Shown here piece by piece: positions 14,747 to 53,105 of a stretch of 64,000 nucleotides of DNA. This stretch comes from a phage. Location of the stretch: NCBI GenBank assembly GCA_014686985.1, contig GCA_014686985.1_3627.1; one strand, 5' to 3'. The stretch's first letter is position 1, and every line of letters starts with the position of its first letter. Position numbers and translations under genes: made by a program. The notes beneath the pieces are model-generated. The model saw only the letters and a list, made by a program, of their open reading frames with translations, had not been told where the DNA came from and ran no database searches.

Positions 14747-15075
14747 TAGTCTTCCCCCAGGTTCAAAGGTCCTAAGATTTCATATGCCAGATTAGAAGTT
14801 ACAAGAGGGTCTTCTGCGTCTTTAGTATTATACCACCCGTGAATAACCAGAGTCCCACTTTGTTTCATGTCCAACTGGAACTCTTCTGCCGTTTCCTCAT
14901 CCAGCTCCAAGATTTCCATAAGGTATTTGATGTTAGGGAGGTATGCAGCTGTTACAGTCCCCTCTACCAGACCTTCAGGCCAACCTACATCTGGATGACA
15001 AGTAGGAACCAGGTTGGTCAGTTTAATGGTGTACGCTTTTTCTGCACGAGCCTTCAGTAACGGGTCAATCTTCAT
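14746..15075 (-). CDS. hypothetical protein (109 aa)
   Basis: ORF track; start/stop overlap with neighbours. Confidence 0.55.
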   Translation of the reverse strand: MKIDPLLKARAEKAYTIKLTNLVPTCHPDVGWPEGLVEGTVTAAYLPNIKYLMEILELDEETAEEFQLDMKQSGTLVIHGWYNTKDAEDPLVTSNLAYEILGPLNLGED

Positions 15076-15425
15076 TATTCGTCCTCCTCTTCGGTACCTG
15101 CTTCCAGTAATAAGTTAAGAATATCTTCTGCACAAGGTTCATAGAACTCTTGGCCTTCATTATCGATGATTTTGTAGTCATCTCCACGAATAATCAGGGG
15201 ATCACTCTCAAAATTATCGAGACCTTTAACAACGACAACACGATCGATTGCCATCATTGTAAGAACTTTATCGACATCTTCCTCTGCTACACCATACTGC
15301 AGCAGAATGTCTTTGGTAGGAGGAACAGCATCCACCACAACGCCGTTACCAAAACCTTCTGGAAGTTTAGCTAAAATATCTTCCGGAACCACATTCACAT
15401 CAAAACCGGTAATTTCTACTTTCAT
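15075..15425 (-). CDS. hypothetical acidic protein (116 aa)
   Basis: ORF track; MKVEITG N-terminus. Confidence 0.55.
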   Translation of the reverse strand: MKVEITGFDVNVVPEDILAKLPEGFGNGVVVDAVPPTKDILLQYGVAEEDVDKVLTMMAIDRVVVVKGLDNFESDPLIIRGDDYKIIDNEGQEFYEPCAEDILNLLLEAGTEEEDE

Positions 15426-15686
15426 TTACAGCACCTCTTCGTCAACTACTTCATAAAAATGGCCTGGGATTGCAATAGCGTTCTCACCTTCACCTACAAA
15501 CACAGTTCCGTCAAGAATCAACATCATAAGAATTTCTGTAATATCCTCTTCCGGAACGTTGCCAAAACCTTTAATCAGCTCGTAGGTTGGAATATTTACC
15601 TCTAAGATGTCACCATCTTTAGAACGGAAATCAACACCGTCCTGAATCTCTGCCGTTTCAAGGTTTTTCAATTTAATCTTCATCAA
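15426..15686 (-). CDS. hypothetical acidic protein (86 aa)
   Basis: ORF track; MMKIKLKNL N-terminus. Confidence 0.55.
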   Translation of the reverse strand: MMKIKLKNLETAEIQDGVDFRSKDGDILEVNIPTYELIKGFGNVPEEDITEILMMLILDGTVFVGEGENAIAIPGHFYEVVDEEVL

Positions 15687-15762
15687 TCGGTCCCCTGTCT
15701 TGTTAAGATGAAGGTATTATTTCACACAGGGTTGGCGTTGTCAACACCTGTGTGCAAGAAAA

Positions 15763-16158
15763 TTACTGAAACAGTGCGGATAAATTACCTTCTGGTGGGA
15801 ACTTATCTGCCAAAAACGGTGTTAGCACAGTAGCCTTCTGAAGATCTGGGGTCCACTCGTTGTTCAGAACATCCCAGTAGTACGCAATGTTGCTGTGTGG
15901 GTGCCGCATTACGAACTTTTTCCCTTCGTAGTCATCTGAAACCTCTACAGAAGAAATAACAACAGAATCTTCAAGGGTTTCTTCATAGAAAGATCCACCT
16001 TCAAATTTCCAACGAGATGCAAGAGCCCCTGCCTTGAACGCTGCAGATAACGGACTGTCGGCAAGAACATACATTTCTTGCACTCTGTCGCTGCGATCTT
16101 TGCTTCTTACGTTGTATACAGTATCTGAGCTATACTCAACACGGTATAGGCTTACCAT
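15763..16158 (-). CDS. hypothetical protein, paralog of 17970-18368 (131 aa)
   Basis: shared C-terminal motif H-P-x-S-x-(I/V)-x-(Y/H)-Y-W-(D/N)...W-T-P...A-T-(V/P)-L. Confidence 0.6.
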   Translation of the reverse strand: MVSLYRVEYSSDTVYNVRSKDRSDRVQEMYVLADSPLSAAFKAGALASRWKFEGGSFYEETLEDSVVISSVEVSDDYEGKKFVMRHPHSNIAYYWDVLNNEWTPDLQKATVLTPFLADKFPPEGNLSALFQ

Positions 16159-16490
16159 TACCGCACCTCCTCAATAACTTCCACATCTGAACCTACCACA
16201 AATGCAAAAGGACAGGTTTCATGAAAGATATCCGGATCGCCGCCAAGCTTGCTAACAATTTCTCCACCACTAATAAACACAAGCTCACCGATATTCATCA
16301 GATTGCTGAAATAGTACCCATAATGATTAAAGAATGCAGCAGGGTCAGGTAGACTAGTAGCCTCAAGCACTACATCGGTTGAGGTTACTTTCTTATCATA
16401 ACCTCTCGCCTTTTGAGATGCAAGATCTGCAGAATCCTCAGGCGACCGGAGATGCACAGGAATTGTTTCACCAATAAAGCGTACTTTCAT
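16158..16490 (-). CDS. hypothetical protein (110 aa)
   Basis: start placed at internal ATG (MKVRFIG...) after GGTGA RBS to avoid overlap with the upstream gene. Confidence 0.5.
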   Translation of the reverse strand: MKVRFIGETIPVHLRSPEDSADLASQKARGYDKKVTSTDVVLEATSLPDPAAFFNHYGYYFSNLMNIGELVFISGGEIVSKLGGDPDIFHETCPFAFVVGSDVEVIEEVR

Positions 16491-16494
16491 ATTA

Positions 16495-16758
16495 TCACCC
16501 AACAACCATAGCTTCAAAAGGAGTCATGAACGAATAAACGGCATCATCATCTGCTTCAGGGAATGCTCCCAAAGACTTCATATCTGAGCCCTTGACAAAT
16601 ACAAGGTTTTGATCAAAGGCTTCTTGGGGGTCAATCCGATACATATTTCGTAAAATATCGCTTACCTCCTCATCAAGAGGTGAGTATGCTGTGCACGTTT
16701 TTCCGATCAAGCTTTGAGAATCAGGGTATCCACCTGAAGTTTTAAAATAAACAATCAT
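16495..16758 (-). CDS. hypothetical protein (87 aa)
   Basis: ORF track. Confidence 0.5.
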   Translation of the reverse strand: MIVYFKTSGGYPDSQSLIGKTCTAYSPLDEEVSDILRNMYRIDPQEAFDQNLVFVKGSDMKSLGAFPEADDDAVYSFMTPFEAMVVG

Positions 16759-16849
16759 ATAGTATCACCTCTGGTAAGAGATTGGGACTCCTTTCCCACA
16801 AATAATTACAAATCTTCCTTAGCGAGGAAGTATGCTAATCCAAGCAGGA

Positions 16850-17119
16850 TTATACCTCTACAATCTCATACACATCAGGAGTTACAATCAACTCCTCTCC
16901 GTTACCCGGTGCAACAAACACCACCAAACCTTCAGGTGTGTGCTTTTTAGCCATCTCGATAACATCCTCTCGCAGAGCTGGCCCCATCAGATCAAAACCT
17001 TCACCCAGGGCATCACGAACCACCTTCATATAGTCAACTGGTTGTGCTTCGACAATCATGCCTTCAACCAGTCCACAGTTTTTGTCTGCCAGCTCAGTTT
17101 TGAATAATTTAATTTTCAT
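16850..17119 (-). CDS. hypothetical acidic protein (89 aa)
   Basis: ORF track; MKIKLFK N-terminus. Confidence 0.55.
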   Translation of the reverse strand: MKIKLFKTELADKNCGLVEGMIVEAQPVDYMKVVRDALGEGFDLMGPALREDVIEMAKKHTPEGLVVFVAPGNGEELIVTPDVYEIVEV

Positions 17120-17145
17120 TTAGAGGTCTCCTCAATTATTTGATA

Positions 17146-17247
17146 TTAATAGCCGTAACCTAACACATTAACTACAACTGCGATTGCAAACATACTTTCA
17201 AAGCATGCAATCTCTACATTTGGGACTAATTTCTTAATCACACCCAT
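17146..17247 (-). CDS. small hydrophobic peptide (33 aa)
   Basis: ATG 17247 after GAGGTG RBS; MGVIKKLVPNVEIACFESMFAIAVVVNVLGYGY; short, so uncertain. Confidence 0.3.
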   Translation of the reverse strand: MGVIKKLVPNVEIACFESMFAIAVVVNVLGYGY

Positions 17248-17256
17248 TGTAGCACC

Positions 17257-17577
17257 TCATTCTCCAAAGTCAATCTTTACTTTGCCTTTCCCCTTACCTT
17301 TCTTTCCACCGCATTTAGCCAGCTGACGTGCTGCAACATCTACCATACGGTCAGTTGCCTCGTAAGCATCACTGCCTTTAGCCTTGGCAATAACTTCTTT
17401 TCCAGAATTGTCAAAAATGAACGCCATAACTTCCTGGTGATCATTTTCAACTTTTACACTCACACGTGCATAGTTAACAGAGGGATGTAAACGCTCCAGC
17501 TTGGACATTTTGCGGGAAATAAAAGATACCATACCTTCTGTGATTTCTACATTGTTGCCAGTGATTTCAATTTGCAT
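17257..17577 (-). CDS. hpf: ribosome hibernation factor-like protein (HPF/RaiA family, 106 aa)
   Basis: N-terminus MQIEITGNNVEITEGM and ...ARQLAK... closely parallel E. coli HPF/YfiA (MQLNITGNNVEITEAL ... LARQLTK); Gly/Lys-rich tail. Confidence 0.7.
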   Translation of the reverse strand: MQIEITGNNVEITEGMVSFISRKMSKLERLHPSVNYARVSVKVENDHQEVMAFIFDNSGKEVIAKAKGSDAYEATDRMVDVAARQLAKCGGKKGKGKGKVKIDFGE

Positions 17578-17661
17578 AACGTGTTCCTTTTAAGGAAGAG
17601 GGAATAACTATCTCTCTTTGAAAACAATGATACTAAATCTGAAGCGTTGTGTCAACAGTTT

Positions 17662-17952
17662 TTACAGCTTGTTGTCGATAGTTTTTAAAATATCCACAGC
17701 AAGATCTGCCATTTTTCGAACATACTCTGCAAACTCAACAGGATCCTTGATCAAAGAATTCACAGGGTCGTACCCTAGAGCGTTTAAAATGGCTGCAGCA
17801 TCTACAACCTTCTCATCATTTGCGAAGATCTCTCCGTCAAACTTGTAGGTCCATTTTGAGTCAACCTTAGCAGAGCAGGGTTTGTCCATGCTTGTTACAC
17901 CATCGTCTTTAAACTCTCCTGCGTTATCAATATTTAGAATTAAATCCATCAT
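17662..17952 (-). CDS. hypothetical protein (96 aa)
   Basis: ORF track. Confidence 0.55.
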   Translation of the reverse strand: MMDLILNIDNAGEFKDDGVTSMDKPCSAKVDSKWTYKFDGEIFANDEKVVDAAAILNALGYDPVNSLIKDPVEFAEYVRKMADLAVDILKTIDNKL

Positions 17953-17969
17953 GGTGACACCTCACTGTT

Positions 17970-18368
17970 TCAGTTTAGCTTTTCTTCAACAACCCCATAA
18001 CTTGGGGCAGAGTCAAGAGCTTTCTGGTTTAAAAGTGGCGTAGCAGAATCTGCAAACGGTGTCCAAGTTTTTGTTCTGGCATTCCAGTAATGCTTCACTC
18101 TGGAATCTGGATGCACTATAACAAAAACTTTTTCACTTGTCAACACATTAATTTCTTCTACACCCTTGCTGATAATTTCTCCGTCATAGCCCCCAGTCTG
18201 GTATCCTTCGTACCAGGTTCTTGCATAGGCATAGCCAGCCTGCCAGCATGCAGCCTCCTCCGAGGTGGAGACTACGTAGAAGTCTTTCTCAAATTCTGGA
18301 ATACGCCCTTGCTTTACGCTCCAAGCCCCGCGAATTTTCATTGTAACTTTAAACAGTTTATTTTTCAC
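17970..18368 (-). CDS. hypothetical protein, paralog of 15763-16158 (132 aa)
   Basis: shared HYW / WTP / ATPLL motifs with 15763-16158. Confidence 0.6.
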   Translation of the reverse strand: MKNKLFKVTMKIRGAWSVKQGRIPEFEKDFYVVSTSEEAACWQAGYAYARTWYEGYQTGGYDGEIISKGVEEINVLTSEKVFVIVHPDSRVKHYWNARTKTWTPFADSATPLLNQKALDSAPSYGVVEEKLN

Positions 18369-18380
18369 AACGGTTACCCA

Positions 18381-18635
18381 TCACAGCTCTACAATATCTG
18401 CATCTGACCCTACCCCAAAGGCATAATAGGACTCTTCCCCGAAATAATATTCAGGTGCACCAGCGGTGATCAGGTCTGATCCCAAGATAAACACCACGTT
18501 GTGGCCTACATAACTGTGATGTTGCCGCACAGGATCATCCCACGGCAACCCTTCAAAGTATACCGCAGGAACGACCTTTCCATTCAGGAAGGATTGTCCC
18601 AAGTAGACGTTAGAATCAAGAATTTTAACCTTCAT
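18381..18635 (-). CDS. hypothetical protein, MKVK-family paralog (84 aa)
   Basis: MKVKILDS...G(S/A)DLI(T/A)AGA shared with 18625-18852 and 22178-22411. Confidence 0.6.
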   Translation of the reverse strand: MKVKILDSNVYLGQSFLNGKVVPAVYFEGLPWDDPVRQHHSYVGHNVVFILGSDLITAGAPEYYFGEESYYAFGVGSDADIVEL

Positions 18636-18852
18636 GATCGTCCTCCACTACCTCTACATCCTCACCTAGGGCAAAGTTATAGGTCCACTGACTGTCAAAG
18701 CATTCCTGAGATGCACCAGCGGCAATAAGATCTGCTCCTTTTATTTTTAAAAGGTCAGGGTAATCTTCGTTAGGGACAGCAGTAAACACTTTTCCTACTA
18801 AAGGCTCCTGACCAATATAGAAGCTTGAATCTAAAACTTTAACTTTCATCAA
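18625..18852 (-). CDS. hypothetical protein, MKVK-family paralog (75 aa)
   Basis: MMKVKVLDS...GADLIAAGAS. Confidence 0.6.
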   Translation of the reverse strand: MMKVKVLDSSFYIGQEPLVGKVFTAVPNEDYPDLLKIKGADLIAAGASQECFDSQWTYNFALGEDVEVVEDDHEG

Positions 18853-19136
18853 CGGTCTCCATCAGGTGGTTGTGGGACGTAAACACTGTTACGAATATCG
18901 TCAGCAGTGTAGTAATAAGTGGTTCCAACCCTGTCTCGGGCTGCAACGTACTCTGCTATACCAATAAGTGCCATTGATTTGGTGGCGTATCTTCCCAACT
19001 CGTTAGCTCCCCAGTAGAATTTAGACCAGTAGGGAATAAGACCGAACAAATATACCTTTTGACGAACTTCCCAGTAAGTGCCTTTTCCGACAAGTTTAAA
19101 CTCTACTTCACTACTGTTAATCTTTTTCATTATCAA
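18849..19136 (-). CDS. hypothetical protein (95 aa)
   Basis: ORF track. Confidence 0.55.
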   Translation of the reverse strand: MIMKKINSSEVEFKLVGKGTYWEVRQKVYLFGLIPYWSKFYWGANELGRYATKSMALIGIAEYVAARDRVGTTYYYTADDIRNSVYVPQPPDGDR

Positions 19137-19429
19137 TCTCCCTCTACCGTGGTCGGATTGTCAGTAAGAAATTGAGCATTGGCTGGAGGCACGCCTGACA
19201 TTTTCCACACAACCATAAGTTTGTAACCAGGCACTCTATTAAGTGCAGATCGAGTAGAGTTTGTGCACGTATACTTTCGCTTTCCAAACCCGTTCTCCAT
19301 CATAATCCAGTACCCAGTATCTTTGTCACCAGGTATCGGTAGACCACCTTCATCAACCCACTGAATGGACCACGGCACGATGGCTACAGCTTTATATTTA
19401 AACTTTTTAAACCACTCAAAAAGTTTCAT
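19133..19429 (-). CDS. hypothetical protein (98 aa)
   Basis: ORF track. Confidence 0.55.
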   Translation of the reverse strand: MKLFEWFKKFKYKAVAIVPWSIQWVDEGGLPIPGDKDTGYWIMMENGFGKRKYTCTNSTRSALNRVPGYKLMVVWKMSGVPPANAQFLTDNPTTVEGD

Positions 19430-19614
19430 AATTCAGCCTCGCTTGGCAACTCTTCTACCTTAACATGCCGAAAAGTGTTACCGTAATGGTTGATCCATGA
19501 CATCAGCTCGCTTTCTTGCTCTTCCTCTGGGATGAACTCTCGAATGCTGACAAGTTTTAAGAAAACCCAATCACAATCTGCACCCATTCTACCAGACAGG
19601 CAATAGTGCTTCAT
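19426..19614 (-). CDS. hypothetical protein (62 aa)
   Basis: ORF track; 4-nt overlaps both sides. Confidence 0.5.
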   Translation of the reverse strand: MKHYCLSGRMGADCDWVFLKLVSIREFIPEEEQESELMSWINHYGNTFRHVKVEELPSEAEL

Positions 19615-19632
19615 AAAACCCTCCTGCCCGGT

Positions 19633-19827
19633 TTAGAATATTGCTTCTTCCATTGCGCCTGAGAGCAACAAAGAGGTGATCTGGCTAACATTCATCTCAG
19701 ACTCTACTTCCTCCCCTTTGAAAGGTTCGCGGCAGAATAGGACTGTTTCAGGACTTTTACTTCGAACAATATAATACAAATCATTCAATGTGTTGTAGTA
19801 ATAAGTGTTAAAACGTAAGTTTTTCAT
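19633..19827 (-). CDS. hypothetical protein (64 aa)
   Basis: ORF track. Confidence 0.5.
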   Translation of the reverse strand: MKNLRFNTYYYNTLNDLYYIVRSKSPETVLFCREPFKGEEVESEMNVSQITSLLLSGAMEEAIF

Positions 19828-20111
19828 TTTCTAGTCCTCTTCTTAGATTTTTGGGGAGAAACGCTTTCTGCAATACGAGACAGACGTTCTTCTGAAGCCT
19901 TACCTACTCCAGGTTTTTTGAGTGGATTATCTTTATGACTACAATCCAACCGGATATTGGATACCTCTCCAACTTTGTAAGTCAATTCTAGCAAAAGGTT
20001 GTCGTCCTTGTCAAATGTTTTTACGATAAATTTTTTATCGTTCTCCTGAACTTCATATCTGGTACCTGCAGTATACAGCATGGTGCCATCAGCATAGGAT
20101 ATCCAGATCAT
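19824..20111 (-). CDS. hypothetical protein (95 aa)
   Basis: ORF track; basic C-terminus. Confidence 0.55.
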   Translation of the reverse strand: MIWISYADGTMLYTAGTRYEVQENDKKFIVKTFDKDDNLLLELTYKVGEVSNIRLDCSHKDNPLKKPGVGKASEERLSRIAESVSPQKSKKRTRK

Positions 20112-27448: not shown

Positions 27449-27511
27449 ACTGCACCTCCTAGCTCACTGTGTGTCAATAATATGCCACATCCTTGTGGCT
27501 TTTGTCAAGAA

Positions 27512-29635
27512 TCAGCAACCACAACTTCCGTAGTGCTTAACTCGCTCGATAACTTCCGCTTGCTTACCTTTATTGTAAGGACGGGAGTTAGGACTGGAAA
27601 GGTATCCAGACACACGTCGAATTACACTGATCGTTCCCTCTTCATGGTTTCCACACTCTGGGCATACAAAGCCTTTAGCTGTTGCACTGAACTCACCAGA
27701 GAAACCACACTTGAGACATTTATCCACAGGTTGGTTAATACCAAAATACATAATGTGTTTATACCCGAAGTCAACAAGAGCCTCTAAAGCATCCAGGTTG
27801 TTTTTCAGGTTAGGTGTTTCTACGTATCCGATGTTGCCACCAGAGGAGATCATAGCAAAACCTTCCTCATACTCCCACTTATCAAAAGGAGAGCTATTTA
27901 TCCATACTGGCTGATGGAAACTGTTGGTGAGATATTCATGCTCGTGCTTCAACACTTCCGGATATTCACGATCCAGACAGGTTGCAGCTTTATAGCATAG
28001 ACTCTCAGAAGGAGTGCCGTACAAGCTAAATGCTAGTCTACTTTCCTTCTTGTATCGCTCACAAGCATCTCTCATGTGCTGAAGGATTCCAAGAGCTAAA
28101 GCCTTGTCACCCTCTCTGCCCAAAATCTGACAGGTTTCATACACACCGATATACCCAATACTGATGGAAGCGTACCCGTCATAGAAGAGTTTATCAATAC
28201 TCTCTTCAGGATCCAGGCGAGCAAGAGCGCCTTCACACCACATGATGGGGTTCCGCCCTGCCTTTGTTCCTTTTAGACGATTAACCCTTACAAGGTGAGC
28301 CTCGTATGCAAGATCCAAGTATTCGTCAAGAACTGCAAAGAAATCAACACCTTCCGTCTTGGCTTTTGCCGCAATCATTGGCAGGTTAAGGCTAACAACG
28401 CCTAAGTTAAATCTGCCAAGGTATTTCTCCTCGCCTGTTTCCAAGTCATTGTATTTGCTAAGAAAACTCCTGCAACCCATGCTAGTTACTTTGCCATCTG
28501 TCGAGCCTGTCACTTTTCTATTTAGTGGTACAGATACGAAGTCAGGATAGATACGTTCTGCACAGCATTCCAGAGCTAATCGTTTCAAATCATAGTTAGG
28601 ATCCCCAGGGTTCATGTTGACACCCTCTTCAAGGAAGAACAGCACTTTAGGGAACACAGGTGTGATACGTTCTTCACCAAGACCCATTTTGTGGACTTTC
28701 AAGTAATTTTTGGTAATCATTCTACCAAAGACCGAGGTATCCAGTCCTAAACTTAATGTGATGAATGGAGTTTGCCCGTTGACAGAAGTTAACGTATTGA
28801 TTTGATAGAGCAAAGTCTGCATGCTGTCAAATACGTCTTTATCTGTCATTTGCATTGCAACAGTCTCAGCATCCGGCAACCAATGTTCCTGGCAAAATTT
28901 AAGGTTCTTCTCATAGGTTGCTTCAGCATACTGTGCCAGATAATGATCAATATGGCTCATAGTCTGACCACCATATTGAGCACTAGCTACCGCACTAGAG
29001 ATTTGGCTAAGGATTGTTGTTGCAACCCCTATTGACTTCGGCTTACTGACATGGGCGTTACCAATGTTGAATCCGTTTTCCAACATATCTGGATAATTTA
29101 CCAAACAACAGTTTGTTAACGGACTGATCAAGTAGTCAAGATCATGCACATGGATGAAGCCTCTATTGTGCTCTTCTGAGACACGGTCTGGCAGGATCTG
29201 TGTTGATGCAAGGTGTTTGCTAAGGATGCCTGCAAGCAGGTCACGATGAGTGTGTACATGATTGGTAGGCTTATTTGCGTTTTCTTTTGTAAATTCATCA
29301 CAAGTGCGATCCAAGAAGCCACTAATATCTGCAAGCAGTTTTCCACCTGCCTCTCTATTATTATCTCTTGTCTGCCTATACTGGATGTATTCTCTGGCTG
29401 CACATTTTAAACCCATATCCATAAGAGCGTCTTCAACAAGGATATGGATATTTTTTACAGAGATCGTGCACTGGTCGGTTGGTAGAGTGTTAGCAACAAC
29501 TTCATTAACCGCGCAGGCGATCCGGTAAGCTTCTTCTTCAGTATGTCCAGACTCAAGTAAGGCGGACTCTGCCGCCTTGATCACCTTAATTCCGTTATAG
29601 ACCTCTTCTCTACCGTCCCGTTTTACAACTTTCAC
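27512..29635 (-). CDS. nrdD: anaerobic ribonucleoside-triphosphate reductase (class III)
   Basis: N-terminal ATP-cone (MKVVKRDGREEVYNGIKVIKA), C-terminal glycyl-radical motif RRVSGYL, 707 aa. Confidence 0.85.
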   Translation of the reverse strand: MKVVKRDGREEVYNGIKVIKAAESALLESGHTEEEAYRIACAVNEVVANTLPTDQCTISVKNIHILVEDALMDMGLKCAAREYIQYRQTRDNNREAGGKLLADISGFLDRTCDEFTKENANKPTNHVHTHRDLLAGILSKHLASTQILPDRVSEEHNRGFIHVHDLDYLISPLTNCCLVNYPDMLENGFNIGNAHVSKPKSIGVATTILSQISSAVASAQYGGQTMSHIDHYLAQYAEATYEKNLKFCQEHWLPDAETVAMQMTDKDVFDSMQTLLYQINTLTSVNGQTPFITLSLGLDTSVFGRMITKNYLKVHKMGLGEERITPVFPKVLFFLEEGVNMNPGDPNYDLKRLALECCAERIYPDFVSVPLNRKVTGSTDGKVTSMGCRSFLSKYNDLETGEEKYLGRFNLGVVSLNLPMIAAKAKTEGVDFFAVLDEYLDLAYEAHLVRVNRLKGTKAGRNPIMWCEGALARLDPEESIDKLFYDGYASISIGYIGVYETCQILGREGDKALALGILQHMRDACERYKKESRLAFSLYGTPSESLCYKAATCLDREYPEVLKHEHEYLTNSFHQPVWINSSPFDKWEYEEGFAMISSGGNIGYVETPNLKNNLDALEALVDFGYKHIMYFGINQPVDKCLKCGFSGEFSATAKGFVCPECGNHEEGTISVIRRVSGYLSSPNSRPYNKGKQAEVIERVKHYGSCGC

Positions 29636-29910
29636 TTTTTCTCTCCAAAACCATTCTTAACAAAAGAGATGAAATCGTCGGCACCGCCTATATGGACACT
29701 TTCAAGATTACTTTCTAAGAAGATCTGCGGCAACGTTCTGGGTACGATTGGACTGCACTTCTCAATAAGCTCTTCTTTTGTGTAACCCTCGCCAAGTGTC
29801 TTATATACAAAAGGCAGACCCTTACTGACTGCAAATTCTTTTGCTCTTACACAATGTGGGCAGTTATCTTTACCGTAAATAATAAAGAAAAAAGATTTTT
29901 CACAGCTCAT
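29632..29910 (-). CDS. glutaredoxin/thioredoxin-like protein
   Basis: CPHC active site in a 92-aa protein between nrdB and nrdD. Confidence 0.75.
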   Translation of the reverse strand: MSCEKSFFFIIYGKDNCPHCVRAKEFAVSKGLPFVYKTLGEGYTKEELIEKCSPIVPRTLPQIFLESNLESVHIGGADDFISFVKNGFGEKK

Positions 29911-52817: not shown

Positions 52818-52908
52818 GGAGGGTAGGGAGCAATGGTGCTCAAGCGGTCTTGAAAACCGTCCCGTTGAGGATGACTCGATGATGGTTCGATTCCATTACT
52901 CTCCGCCA
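52818..52908 (+). tRNA. tRNA-Ser(UGA): tRNA-Ser (anticodon UGA), class II
   Basis: acceptor GGAGGGT/ACTCTCC, anticodon stem GCGGT/ACCGT with loop CTTGAAA, long variable arm, T-loop TTCGATT, CCA encoded. Confidence 0.7.
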
Positions 52909-53006: not shown

Positions 53007-53105
53007 GCTAGGTAAGCCCTTTGGCAAGGGCGAGGATTTTTAATCCTGAAAATAGACGAGGTAGTCGTTGAATACATAGGTGGTTCGATTCCATCGCCTA
53101 GCACC
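53007..53105 (+). tRNA. atypical tRNA-like element (99 nt; anticodon arm irregular, about 30-nt variable region)
   Basis: intact acceptor GCTAGGT/GCCTAGC, D-arm GCCC...GGGC and T-arm GGTGG-TTCGATT-CCATC; AGGA-TTTTTAA-TCCT arm would give anticodon UUU (Lys) but with a mismatch and an over-long variable region. Confidence 0.45.

What the first reader, a model, noticed from the sequence alone, without database searches (positions are those of the whole stretch)
17257..17577. Phage-encoded ribosome hibernation factor (HPF/RaiA homolog)
Seen in sequence: the 106-aa product begins MQIEITGNNVEITEGM and contains ...ARQLAK..., closely paralleling E. coli HPF/YfiA (MQLNITGNNVEITEAL ... LARQLTK), followed by a Gly/Lys-rich tail. 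Established knowledge: HPF/RaiA bind the 30S decoding centre and stabilise inactive ribosomes. Inference: the phage may remodel host translation (shut-off, ribosome preservation or selective translation) from within a block of early-type small genes.
Basis: partly seen in the sequence, partly recalled or inferred. Interest (0 to 1): 0.65.

Follow-up and report, generated by a model that had tools for sequence, protein, structure and literature searches.

The report
Known HPF homolog of rV5-like coliphages
The gene is real and is a true relative of the bacterial ribosome-hibernation factor HPF, but it is the already annotated and published "HPF" gene of rV5-like E. coli phages; what it does during infection is still untested, and the one published binding test was negative.

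Summary
The ORF is exactly as described: window 17257-17577, minus strand, 106 aa. It passes the curated thresholds of Pfam Ribosomal_S30AE and TIGR00741. Its best solved-structure match is E. coli HPF (38 identical residues in 90 aligned columns). [quoted passage not shown]

The window is a Vequintavirus (rV5-like) coliphage. The same gene is present in 119 phage records. It has been annotated as "sigma 54 modulation factor" or HPF since the rV5 genome record.

Mizuno et al. 2019 (Nat Commun) listed it as a phage HPF and tested it. When expressed in E. coli it was not found in salt-washed 70S/100S ribosomes and did not change 100S levels. The authors themselves call this result inconclusive.

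New here:
- Purifying selection is strong (dN/dS 0.03-0.08).
- A sigma70-like promoter sits directly upstream, and its -35 element recurs in a 64%-identical uncultured sister lineage.
- The lineage is isolated: the nearest cellular relative is 44% identical.
- Several family-typical ribosome contacts are replaced (E51, T53, K80, K89), while K23, K26, R29, R83 and K87 are kept.

The function is unproven and the finding is not novel.

The parts
17257..17577 (-). CDS of the phage HPF homolog (106 aa plus stop), orthologue of rV5 ORF144 / ABI79209
   Evidence: ORF list and translation. Pfam, NCBIfam and PHROG hits. 119 phage records carry it at 93-100% identity.
17311..17577 (-). [quoted passage not shown]
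   Evidence: Pfam match covers residues 3-89. AF2 pLDDT is about 90 for residues 1-80 and 83 for 81-90, with elements E2-8 H14-30 E34-43 E48-56 E61-68 H71-90. Foldseek top hits are 4hei, 2rql and 6h4n.
17260..17310 (-). Codons 90-106: Lys/Gly-rich C-terminal tail GGKKGKGKGKVKIDFGE, predicted disordered
   Evidence: pLDDT is below 50 for residues 91-106. Net charge is +4 and pI 10. Among orthologues the tail varies in length and has a frameshift in phage Murica. The sister lineage has a basic tail without the G/K repeat.
17585..17589 (-). Shine-Dalgarno-like AAGGA, 7 nt upstream of the ATG
   Evidence: Read directly from the sequence. A ribosome_binding_site is annotated at the same place in phage Murica.
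17627..17655 (-). Sigma70-like promoter TTGACA-17 nt-TATCAT (11 of 12 consensus positions) in the 84-bp gap upstream of the CDS
   Evidence: Consensus scan. The equivalent site is annotated 'Sigma70-type promoter; P144' in the rV5 record DQ832317. A TTGACA is also present at the same position upstream of the 64%-identical orthologue in L004. This is a consensus match only; no transcript data were available.
17146..17247 (-). 33-aa hydrophobic ORF starting 10 nt after the HPF stop, probably co-transcribed (rV5 ORF145)
   Evidence: ORF list. It is annotated in all relatives inspected. No terminator-like site lies between it and the HPF gene.

Best explanation
The gene encodes a short-HPF-type member of the S30AE (HPF/RaiA) family. 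An ancestor of the rV5-like phages (genus Vequintavirus) captured it long ago from a gammaproteobacterial host and has kept it under strong selection.

Shown:
- Family membership by profile and by predicted fold.
- Presence in every rV5-like phage record that matched the surrounding 5-kb region (119 of 121 records).
- Purifying selection.
- A sigma70-like promoter and a Shine-Dalgarno sequence directly upstream.

Inferred:
- Host RNA polymerase transcribes the gene early in infection.
- The protein docks in the tRNA/mRNA channel of the 30S subunit of vacant host ribosomes. It would use the retained basic residues of helices alpha1 and alpha2 (K23, K26, R29, R84, K88).
- The flexible Lys/Gly tail replaces the usual helical K-H-K-x-K end and reaches towards the mRNA channel and the RMF site.
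- The most likely net effect is to hold or protect idle 70S ribosomes. It may also out-compete host HPF/RMF so that ribosomes are not locked into 100S dimers. Either way the ribosome pool stays usable by the phage in starved or stationary gut hosts.

Which of these effects applies (inhibition, protection or anti-dimerisation) is not known.
For: - Pfam PF02482 scores 56.7 bits (cut-off 23.7), E 4e-15. TIGR00741 HPF/YfiA scores 56.8 bits (cut-off 40.9).
- PDB sequence search: E. coli HPF at E 4e-15, ahead of RaiA at E 0.02.
[quoted passage not shown] Foldseek's 36 hits with E <= 0.001 are all HPF/RaiA/pY structures, with TM 0.8-0.9 to 4hei, 2rql and 6h4n.
- Family-typical basic and structural positions K23, K26, R/K29, E44, D69, Y71, D75, D79, R83, Q84 and K87 are all retained, measured in an alignment with 107 cellular relatives. 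K26, R83 and K87 are among the residues reported to contact 16S rRNA in enterobacterial HPF-70S structures (bioRxiv 10.1101/2025.10.07.680626).
- dN/dS is 0.03-0.08 among orthologues with dS up to 0.74. Synonymous sites are saturated against the 64%-identical sister lineage while dN is 0.30.
- The gene is present in 119 of the 121 phage records that match the surrounding 5 kb. It sits at the syntenic position in the sister lineage.
- Its own sigma70-like promoter is present.
- GC content is 41.4% against 42.6% for the window, so the gene matches the phage's composition.
Against: - The only experiment was negative. The rV5 protein (105 aa, 97% identical by BLASTP; 98% in the MAFFT alignment) was expressed from pBAD in E. 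coli. It was found in crude extract but not in 70S or 100S fractions, and 100S levels did not change (PMC6375957). The caveats are a 500 mM NH4Cl cushion and cells harvested at OD 1.
- Several positions that are strongly conserved in cellular relatives or reported as rRNA/uS9 contacts are replaced in the phage lineage. These are E51 to M/S (E in 78 of 107), T53 to F/R, H55 to F, K80 to V/T (K/R in 87 of 107) and K89 to G/S (K/R in 95 of 107).
- The protein scores 65 bits against the curated 125-bit cut-off of the E. coli-type HPF equivalog model.
- No transcriptomic, proteomic or genetic data on the gene during infection were found in the paper library.
Confidence: 0.6

Rival explanations
1. 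Repurposed HPF fold. The protein keeps the HPF scaffold but no longer binds the ribosome stably. It instead acts on another host target, either a protein or an RNA. The precedent is T7 Gp1.2, a small phage protein with an HPF/YfiA-like fold that inhibits the host dGTPase.
For: - The published ribosome co-sedimentation test was negative and 100S was unaffected.
- Contact positions E51, T53, H55, K80 and K89 are replaced, and the beta3 surface has become aromatic/hydrophobic (VMAFIF).
- The lineage is isolated: the nearest cellular relative among 1.84 billion representatives is 44% identical.
Against: - Unlike Gp1.2, this protein keeps clear sequence homology to HPF (E 4e-15).
- It retains most of the conserved basic residues of alpha1 and alpha2, and its added tail is basic. 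Both fit RNA binding.
- The negative experiment used a high-salt wash.
- No alternative partner is suggested by any data.
Confidence: 0.25
2. Functionless passenger. The gene is a recently picked-up host gene with no role for the phage.
For: It is a homolog of a host gene and sits among many small ORFs of unknown function. No phenotype has been reported.
Against: - dN/dS is 0.03-0.08 across orthologues.
- The gene is present in 119 records and in a sister lineage at the same position.
- It is only about 42% identical to host HPF and has the phage's GC content.
- It has its own promoter and Shine-Dalgarno sequence.
Confidence: 0.03
3. Transcription regulator of sigma-54, as the old product name 'sigma 54 modulation factor' implies.
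For: Only the historical name in GenBank records, which goes back to the similarity to the Klebsiella oxytoca 'probable sigma(54) modulation protein'.
Against: The protein family behind that name is the one whose solved structures are all ribosome-bound or ribosome-hibernation factors. No DNA-binding or sigma-binding domain is detected.
Confidence: 0.02

Closest known systems
rV5 ORF144 protein (ABI79209), the 'HPF' of rV5-like phages described in Mizuno et al. 2019, Nat Commun 10:752
   Same: It is the same gene. Identity is 97% by BLASTP (98% in the MAFFT alignment). The genomic position, upstream promoter and tail are the same.
   Different: The window's allele has 106 aa with 'GNNVEITE', as in E. 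coli HPF. rV5 has 105 aa with 'GNVEITE', and also differs at R22H and V34A. The 106-aa allele is that of the Vequintavirus murica group. The protein tested in 2019 was the 105-aa allele.
E. coli short HPF (YhbH; PDB 2rql, 6h4n, 6y69)
   Same: Length class and fold are the same. There are 38 identical residues in 90 alignment columns. The N-terminal strand and loop are nearly identical. K23, K26, R83 and K87 are retained.
   Different: - The score is below the NCBIfam equivalog cut-off (65 against 125 bits).
- E51, T53, H55, K80 and K89 are replaced.
- The helical C-terminus KHKDKLKQH is replaced by a longer glycine-broken tail, CGGKKGKGKGKVKIDFGE.
- Overall pI is 9.0 against 6.4.
- No 100S stimulation was seen in the published test.
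E. coli RaiA / YfiA (protein Y)
   Same: The fold and the 30S binding site of the family are the same. Like RaiA, the phage protein extends beyond the end of short HPF. In RaiA that extension runs towards the RMF site and is held to prevent 100S formation.
   Different: The RaiA model scores only 22.8 bits against a 158-bit cut-off. The tail sequences are unrelated, and the phage tail is shorter. The RefSeq product name 'ribosome-associated translation inhibitor RaiA' is a generic family name, not evidence of RaiA-type function.
Other phage S30AE proteins (PHROG 8990; e.g. Cronobacter phage GAP32 HPF)
   Same: They belong to the same Pfam family and are also carried by large myoviruses.
   Different: They belong to a separate PHROG: this protein scores 232 bits to phrog_12469 but 33 bits to phrog_8990. 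Mizuno et al. placed GAP32 elsewhere in the HPF tree. This points to independent acquisitions.
T7 Gp1.2 (dGTPase inhibitor)
   Same: It is a small phage protein with an HPF/YfiA-like alpha/beta fold.
   Different: It shows no detectable sequence similarity. The fold match is weak (TM about 0.5), the interhelical angle differs, and the target is known not to be the ribosome.

Membership tests
Ribosomal_S30AE / HPF-YfiA family (PF02482, TIGR00741) | Profile match above the curated score threshold | tested here: met
   PF02482 scores 56.7 bits against 23.7. TIGR00741 scores 56.8 bits against 40.9.
Ribosomal_S30AE / HPF-YfiA family (PF02482, TIGR00741) | [quoted passage not shown] | tested here: met
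   The AF2 model gives E2-8 H14-30 E34-43 E48-56 E61-68 H71-90 at pLDDT 84. TM is 0.8-0.9 to 4hei, 2rql and 6h4n. This is a prediction, not a solved structure.
Ribosomal_S30AE / HPF-YfiA family (PF02482, TIGR00741) | Conserved basic residues of alpha1/alpha2 and beta-sheet residues that contact 16S rRNA and uS9 | tested here: inconclusive
   Retained: K23, K26, R29, E60, R83, Q84, K87 and K91. Replaced: E51 to M, T53 to F, H55 to F, K80 to V and K89 to G. The comparison uses 107 cellular relatives and the published contact lists.
Ribosomal_S30AE / HPF-YfiA family (PF02482, TIGR00741) | Binding to the 30S subunit or 70S ribosome | not testable with these tools
   The published test on the rV5 orthologue was negative after a 500 mM NH4Cl wash, and its authors call it inconclusive.
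Short HPF, E. coli type (NCBIfam NF007780 equivalog) | Score above the equivalog cut-off | tested here: not met
   65.2 bits against a cut-off of 125.
Short HPF, E. coli type (NCBIfam NF007780 equivalog) | Promotes or stabilises RMF-dependent 100S dimers | not testable with these tools
   Published: no discernible effect on 100S in cells expressing the rV5 protein.
RaiA / YfiA (NCBIfam NF007654 equivalog) | Score above the equivalog cut-off, and a RaiA-type C-terminal tail | tested here: not met
   22.8 bits against a cut-off of 158. The phage tail is Lys/Gly-rich and unrelated in sequence.
Long HPF (N-terminal S30AE domain plus C-terminal dimerisation domain) | Presence of the C-terminal dimerisation domain | tested here: not met
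   The protein has 106 aa. PF02482 is the only significant Pfam match, and residues 91-106 are predicted disordered.

The most novel reading that the evidence does not exclude
The vequintavirus protein is a neofunctionalised HPF rather than a hibernation promoter. Having lost several canonical contacts and gained a flexible poly-Lys/Gly tail, it would bind only transiently or only to particular ribosome states. In that reading it acts as an anti-hibernation factor. It would displace host HPF/RaiA or block RMF, which would wake or keep awake the ribosomes of starved hosts or of hosts driven into dormancy by a defence system. Alternatively it has moved to a non-ribosomal target altogether.
Probability: 0.25. 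Interest if true: 0.6.

Novelty: already known. Interest (0 to 1): 0.22.

Why it matters
Phage genes that touch the ribosome directly are rare, and their roles are mostly unknown. If this protein does act on host ribosomes, it would give a tractable E. coli model: rV5-like phages are in the BASEL collection. Such a model could show how a virulent phage handles hibernating ribosomes in non-growing gut bacteria. As a scan finding, however, it adds nothing to the record. The gene has been annotated since the rV5 genome record, and it was catalogued and experimentally probed in 2019. The useful residue of this re-examination is a sharper statement of what is still open. The protein is strongly selected and appears to have its own promoter, and it has diverged at several contact positions. 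The only binding test used conditions under which the authors themselves say the factor may have been washed off.

Tried and rejected
- Word-indexed protein search. It returned only the phage's own cluster plus one 64%-identical sister cluster, so it gave no cellular relatives. The exhaustive HMMER search was needed for those.
- IMG/VR scan. It gave only two further loci, both ordinary rV5-like contigs.
- tblastn with the sister-lineage protein P0004. It found no isolated phage carrying that variant. The variant is known only from metagenome and assembly contigs L004-L007.
- A possible second HPF-like gene next door. ORF 16850-17119 is labelled 'sigma 54 modulation factor' in some records. This was rejected because it has no Pfam hit and no similarity to the HPF ORF.
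- Rfam scan for a regulatory RNA near the gene. Nothing was found; only the tRNAs at 52.5-53.4 kb reached threshold.
- Six literature searches for any follow-up on phage HPF function. Only Mizuno et al. 2019 and a 2020 note repeating it were found.
- dS against the sister lineage is saturated, so no dN/dS ratio could be given for that comparison.
- P0007, a 1160-aa repeat protein, was judged a spurious hit and excluded from the alignment.

Full report
**1. Observation**

There are 38 identical residues in 90 alignment columns. The only correction is that the E. coli string quoted is HPF, not YfiA/RaiA.

**2. What the window is**

Megablast of 15000-20000 finds 121 phage records, the best at 99.4-99.7% identity. 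These include Escherichia phages navn, Murica, SophiaRose and HeinrichReichert (Bas58), all of genus Vequintavirus, the rV5-like myoviruses of about 137 kb. tblastn with the protein finds it in 119 records at 93-100% identity. Product names vary: 'sigma 54 modulation factor', 'ribosome hibernation (promoting) factor', 'ribosome-associated translation inhibitor RaiA', and in four records the erroneous 'ATP-dependent protease La'. In the rV5 record DQ832317 it is ORF144 (ABI79209), with an annotated 'Sigma70-type promoter P144' immediately upstream.

**3. Prior knowledge**

Mizuno et al. 2019 (Nat Commun 10:752, PMC6375957) list rV5, FV3, JES-2013, FFH2 and an O157 typing phage as HPF-encoding phages. 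They state that the E. coli-phage proteins cluster among gammaproteobacterial HPFs.

They also tested the rV5 protein. It was expressed from pBAD24 in E. coli NM522 and was detected by MS in crude extract. It was not detected in 70S or 100S fractions, and 100S abundance did not change. Cells were harvested at OD600 of 1, and ribosomes were pelleted through a 500 mM NH4Cl sucrose cushion. [quoted passage not shown] They also speculate that viral HPF might compete with the cellular factor and prevent ribosome dimerisation.

Mathieu et al. 2020 (PMC6969025) repeat that rV5-like gut phages carry hpf 'as already described'. Further literature searches found no later functional work.

**4. Family membership tested here**

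- Pfam PF02482 (Ribosomal_S30AE): 56.7 bits against a gathering score of 23.7.
- TIGR00741 (HPF/YfiA family): 56.8 against 40.9, which passes.
- E. coli-type HPF equivalog NF007780: 65.2 against 125, which fails.
- RaiA equivalog NF007654: 22.8 against 158, which fails.

The protein is thus a family member that leans towards short HPF, but it is not an equivalog of either host protein. It forms its own PHROG (12469, 'unknown function', 232 bits), distinct from the general phage S30AE PHROG 8990 (33 bits).

An AlphaFold2 model built from a shallow five-sequence alignment has mean pLDDT 84. [quoted passage not shown] Foldseek against PDB returns 36 hits with E <= 0.001, and all of them are HPF/RaiA/pY structures. 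The best are V. cholerae HPF 4hei and E. coli HPF 2rql/6h4n, with TM 0.8-0.9. There is no C-terminal dimerisation domain, so this is not a long HPF.

**5. How far it has diverged**

An exhaustive HMMER search of 1.84 billion cluster representatives gave only 141 hits at E <= 1e-3. After the phage's own cluster, the best hit is an enterobacterial-type HPF at 44% identity (E 6e-10). The lineage is isolated. That does not fit well with the 'relatively recent' transfer suggested in 2019.

I aligned the phage proteins with E. coli HPF and 106 cellular relatives (107 cellular sequences in all). I then looked at the positions reported to contact 16S rRNA or uS9 in enterobacterial and Pseudomonas HPF-70S structures (bioRxiv 10.1101/2025.10.07.680626).

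| Status | Positions (E. coli numbering) |
|---|---|
| Retained | K23, K26, R29 (the family's majority state), E44, E60, D69, Y71, D75, D79, R83, Q84, K87, K91 |
| Replaced | E51 to M (S in the sister lineage; E in 78 of 107), T53 to F (R), H55 to F, K80 to V (T; K/R in 87 of 107), K89 to G (S; K/R in 95 of 107) |

The usual helical end K-H-K-x-K is replaced by C-G-G-K-K-G-K-G-K-G-K-V-K-I-D-F-G-E. The core domain has pI 6.1, like that of E. coli HPF, but the tail raises the whole protein to pI 9.0. This pattern fits either a remodelled ribosome interface or a drift away from the ribosome. Sequence alone cannot decide between the two.

**6. Selection and distribution**

I extracted the gene from 12 relatives and computed Nei-Gojobori distances. 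Among rV5-like orthologues dS reaches 0.74 while dN stays at or below 0.025, giving dN/dS of 0.03-0.08. The tail is as constrained as the core within this group.

A 64%-identical orthologue (P0004, 103 aa) occurs on uncultured or assembly contigs of 44-137 kb (L004-L007). It sits at the syntenic position, in the same array of small genes downstream of a ClpP-like protease gene. Against it, synonymous sites are saturated and dN is 0.30. Its tail is basic (KYSKSKGIDKRTAKWDY) but is not a G/K repeat. The conserved property is therefore a basic, probably flexible extension rather than the repeat itself. No isolated phage in the collection carries this variant.

There are also small allelic differences:
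- The window's allele (Vequintavirus murica group) has GNNVEITE, as E. coli HPF does. rV5 and most others have lost one Asn.
- YN3 has one Lys-Gly unit fewer.
- Murica has a 1-nt deletion that truncates the tail to 99 aa. APECc02 matches only over residues 1-89, but its tail was not examined.

A functionless-passenger reading is excluded.

**7. Expression signals and context**

The 84-bp gap upstream holds TTGACA-17-TATCAT (17655..17627, minus strand; 11 of 12 consensus positions). An AAGGA lies 7 nt before the ATG. The promoter coincides with rV5's annotated P144. A TTGACA is also found at the corresponding place in the sister lineage. All of these are consensus matches; no transcript data were available.

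No terminator-like site separates the gene from the 33-aa hydrophobic ORF that starts 10 nt downstream (17146-17247). The next terminator-like hairpin on this strand is at 16830..16814.

The gene lies in a long minus-strand block. Going upstream, this block contains PhoH-like, ClpP-like, Nrd, thymidylate synthase, ligase and exonuclease genes, and around the HPF gene it contains dozens of small ORFs without Pfam matches. The genome also carries a tRNA cluster and an RNA ligase / polynucleotide kinase pair, which are other genes concerned with keeping the translation apparatus working.

**8. Mechanism**

The best-supported reading (confidence about 0.6) has three parts. Host RNA polymerase makes the protein early. 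The protein then docks, like HPF/RaiA, in the tRNA/mRNA channel of the 30S subunit of non-translating ribosomes, through the retained alpha1/alpha2 basic residues. The flexible basic tail substitutes for the lost helical lysines and runs towards the mRNA channel and the RMF site, as the RaiA tail is reported to do.

The consequence could be protection of idle ribosomes, RaiA-like blocking of 100S formation, or transient inhibition of host initiation. None of these has been shown.

The main rival (about 0.25) is that the scaffold has been repurposed. It draws on the negative co-sedimentation result, the replaced contacts, and the precedent of T7 Gp1.2. Gp1.2 is an HPF-like fold that inhibits dGTPase (7u66_G, a weak Foldseek hit; PMC9478638). 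The sigma-54 reading implied by the old product name has no support.

**9. Verdict**

Homology is supported. The functional inference is unproven and has one inconclusive published negative against it. The finding is already known, and interest is low (0.22). The open question of what a strongly selected HPF derivative, apparently transcribed from its own promoter, does for a virulent coliphage remains a reasonable experimental target.

Noticed in passing
window 53007-53105 (+) and 52818-52908 (+): ARAGORN calls a 99-nt 'tRNA-???' with a 4-base anticodon, and a tRNA-Ser(tga), inside the tRNA cluster. The first is annotated as a 97-nt tRNA-Lys in phage HeinrichReichert, and the second is not annotated there. 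Neither reaches the Rfam tRNA gathering score. They may be intron-containing, degenerate or otherwise unusual tRNA genes.
   Followed up: partly
window 15763-16158, 17970-18368, 18381-18635, 18625-18852, 16158-16517, 16495-16758 (all minus strand): The small ORFs flanking the HPF gene include paralogues. The two proteins of about 131 aa match at E 4e-10. The 84-aa and 75-aa neighbours match at E 1e-14, with weaker links to two more ORFs. None has a Pfam match. The HPF gene therefore sits inside a partly duplicated array of unknown-function genes.
   Followed up: partly
window 16850-17119 (-): This 89-aa ORF is labelled 'sigma 54 modulation factor' in several GenBank records (navn, nom, SophiaRose, pangalan). 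It has no PF02482 hit and no similarity to the HPF ORF, so this is an annotation-propagation error. Conversely, the HPF gene is labelled 'ATP-dependent protease La type I' in four records.
   Followed up: yes
window 17146-17247 (-): A 33-aa hydrophobic ORF begins 10 nt after the HPF stop and is annotated in the relatives inspected. A sigma70-like site (TTGACT-16-TACAAT with an upstream TG) lies inside the 3' end of the HPF gene at 17273..17246. It may encode a small membrane peptide co-expressed with HPF.
   Followed up: no
window 15000-20000 compared with GenBank MG0656xx records: Eighteen records named 'Campylobacter phage' (host C. jejuni) match this E. coli rV5-like phage region; those listed are 98.4-99.7% identical. 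The host label of those records is probably wrong, or they are co-isolated coliphages.
   Followed up: no
window about 27500-29700 (-), by correspondence with MZ501073 110392-112559: In the closest annotated relative the class III anaerobic ribonucleotide reductase CDS is joined from two pieces (flag j2). This suggests an intron or another intervening element in that gene. It was not checked in the window itself.
   Followed up: no
L004-L007 (contigs of 44-137 kb from Logan, ENA and NCBI assembly GCA_012894635.1): An uncultured sister lineage of rV5-like phages carries a 64%-identical HPF at the syntenic position. It has no representative in the isolated-phage collection.
   Followed up: partly
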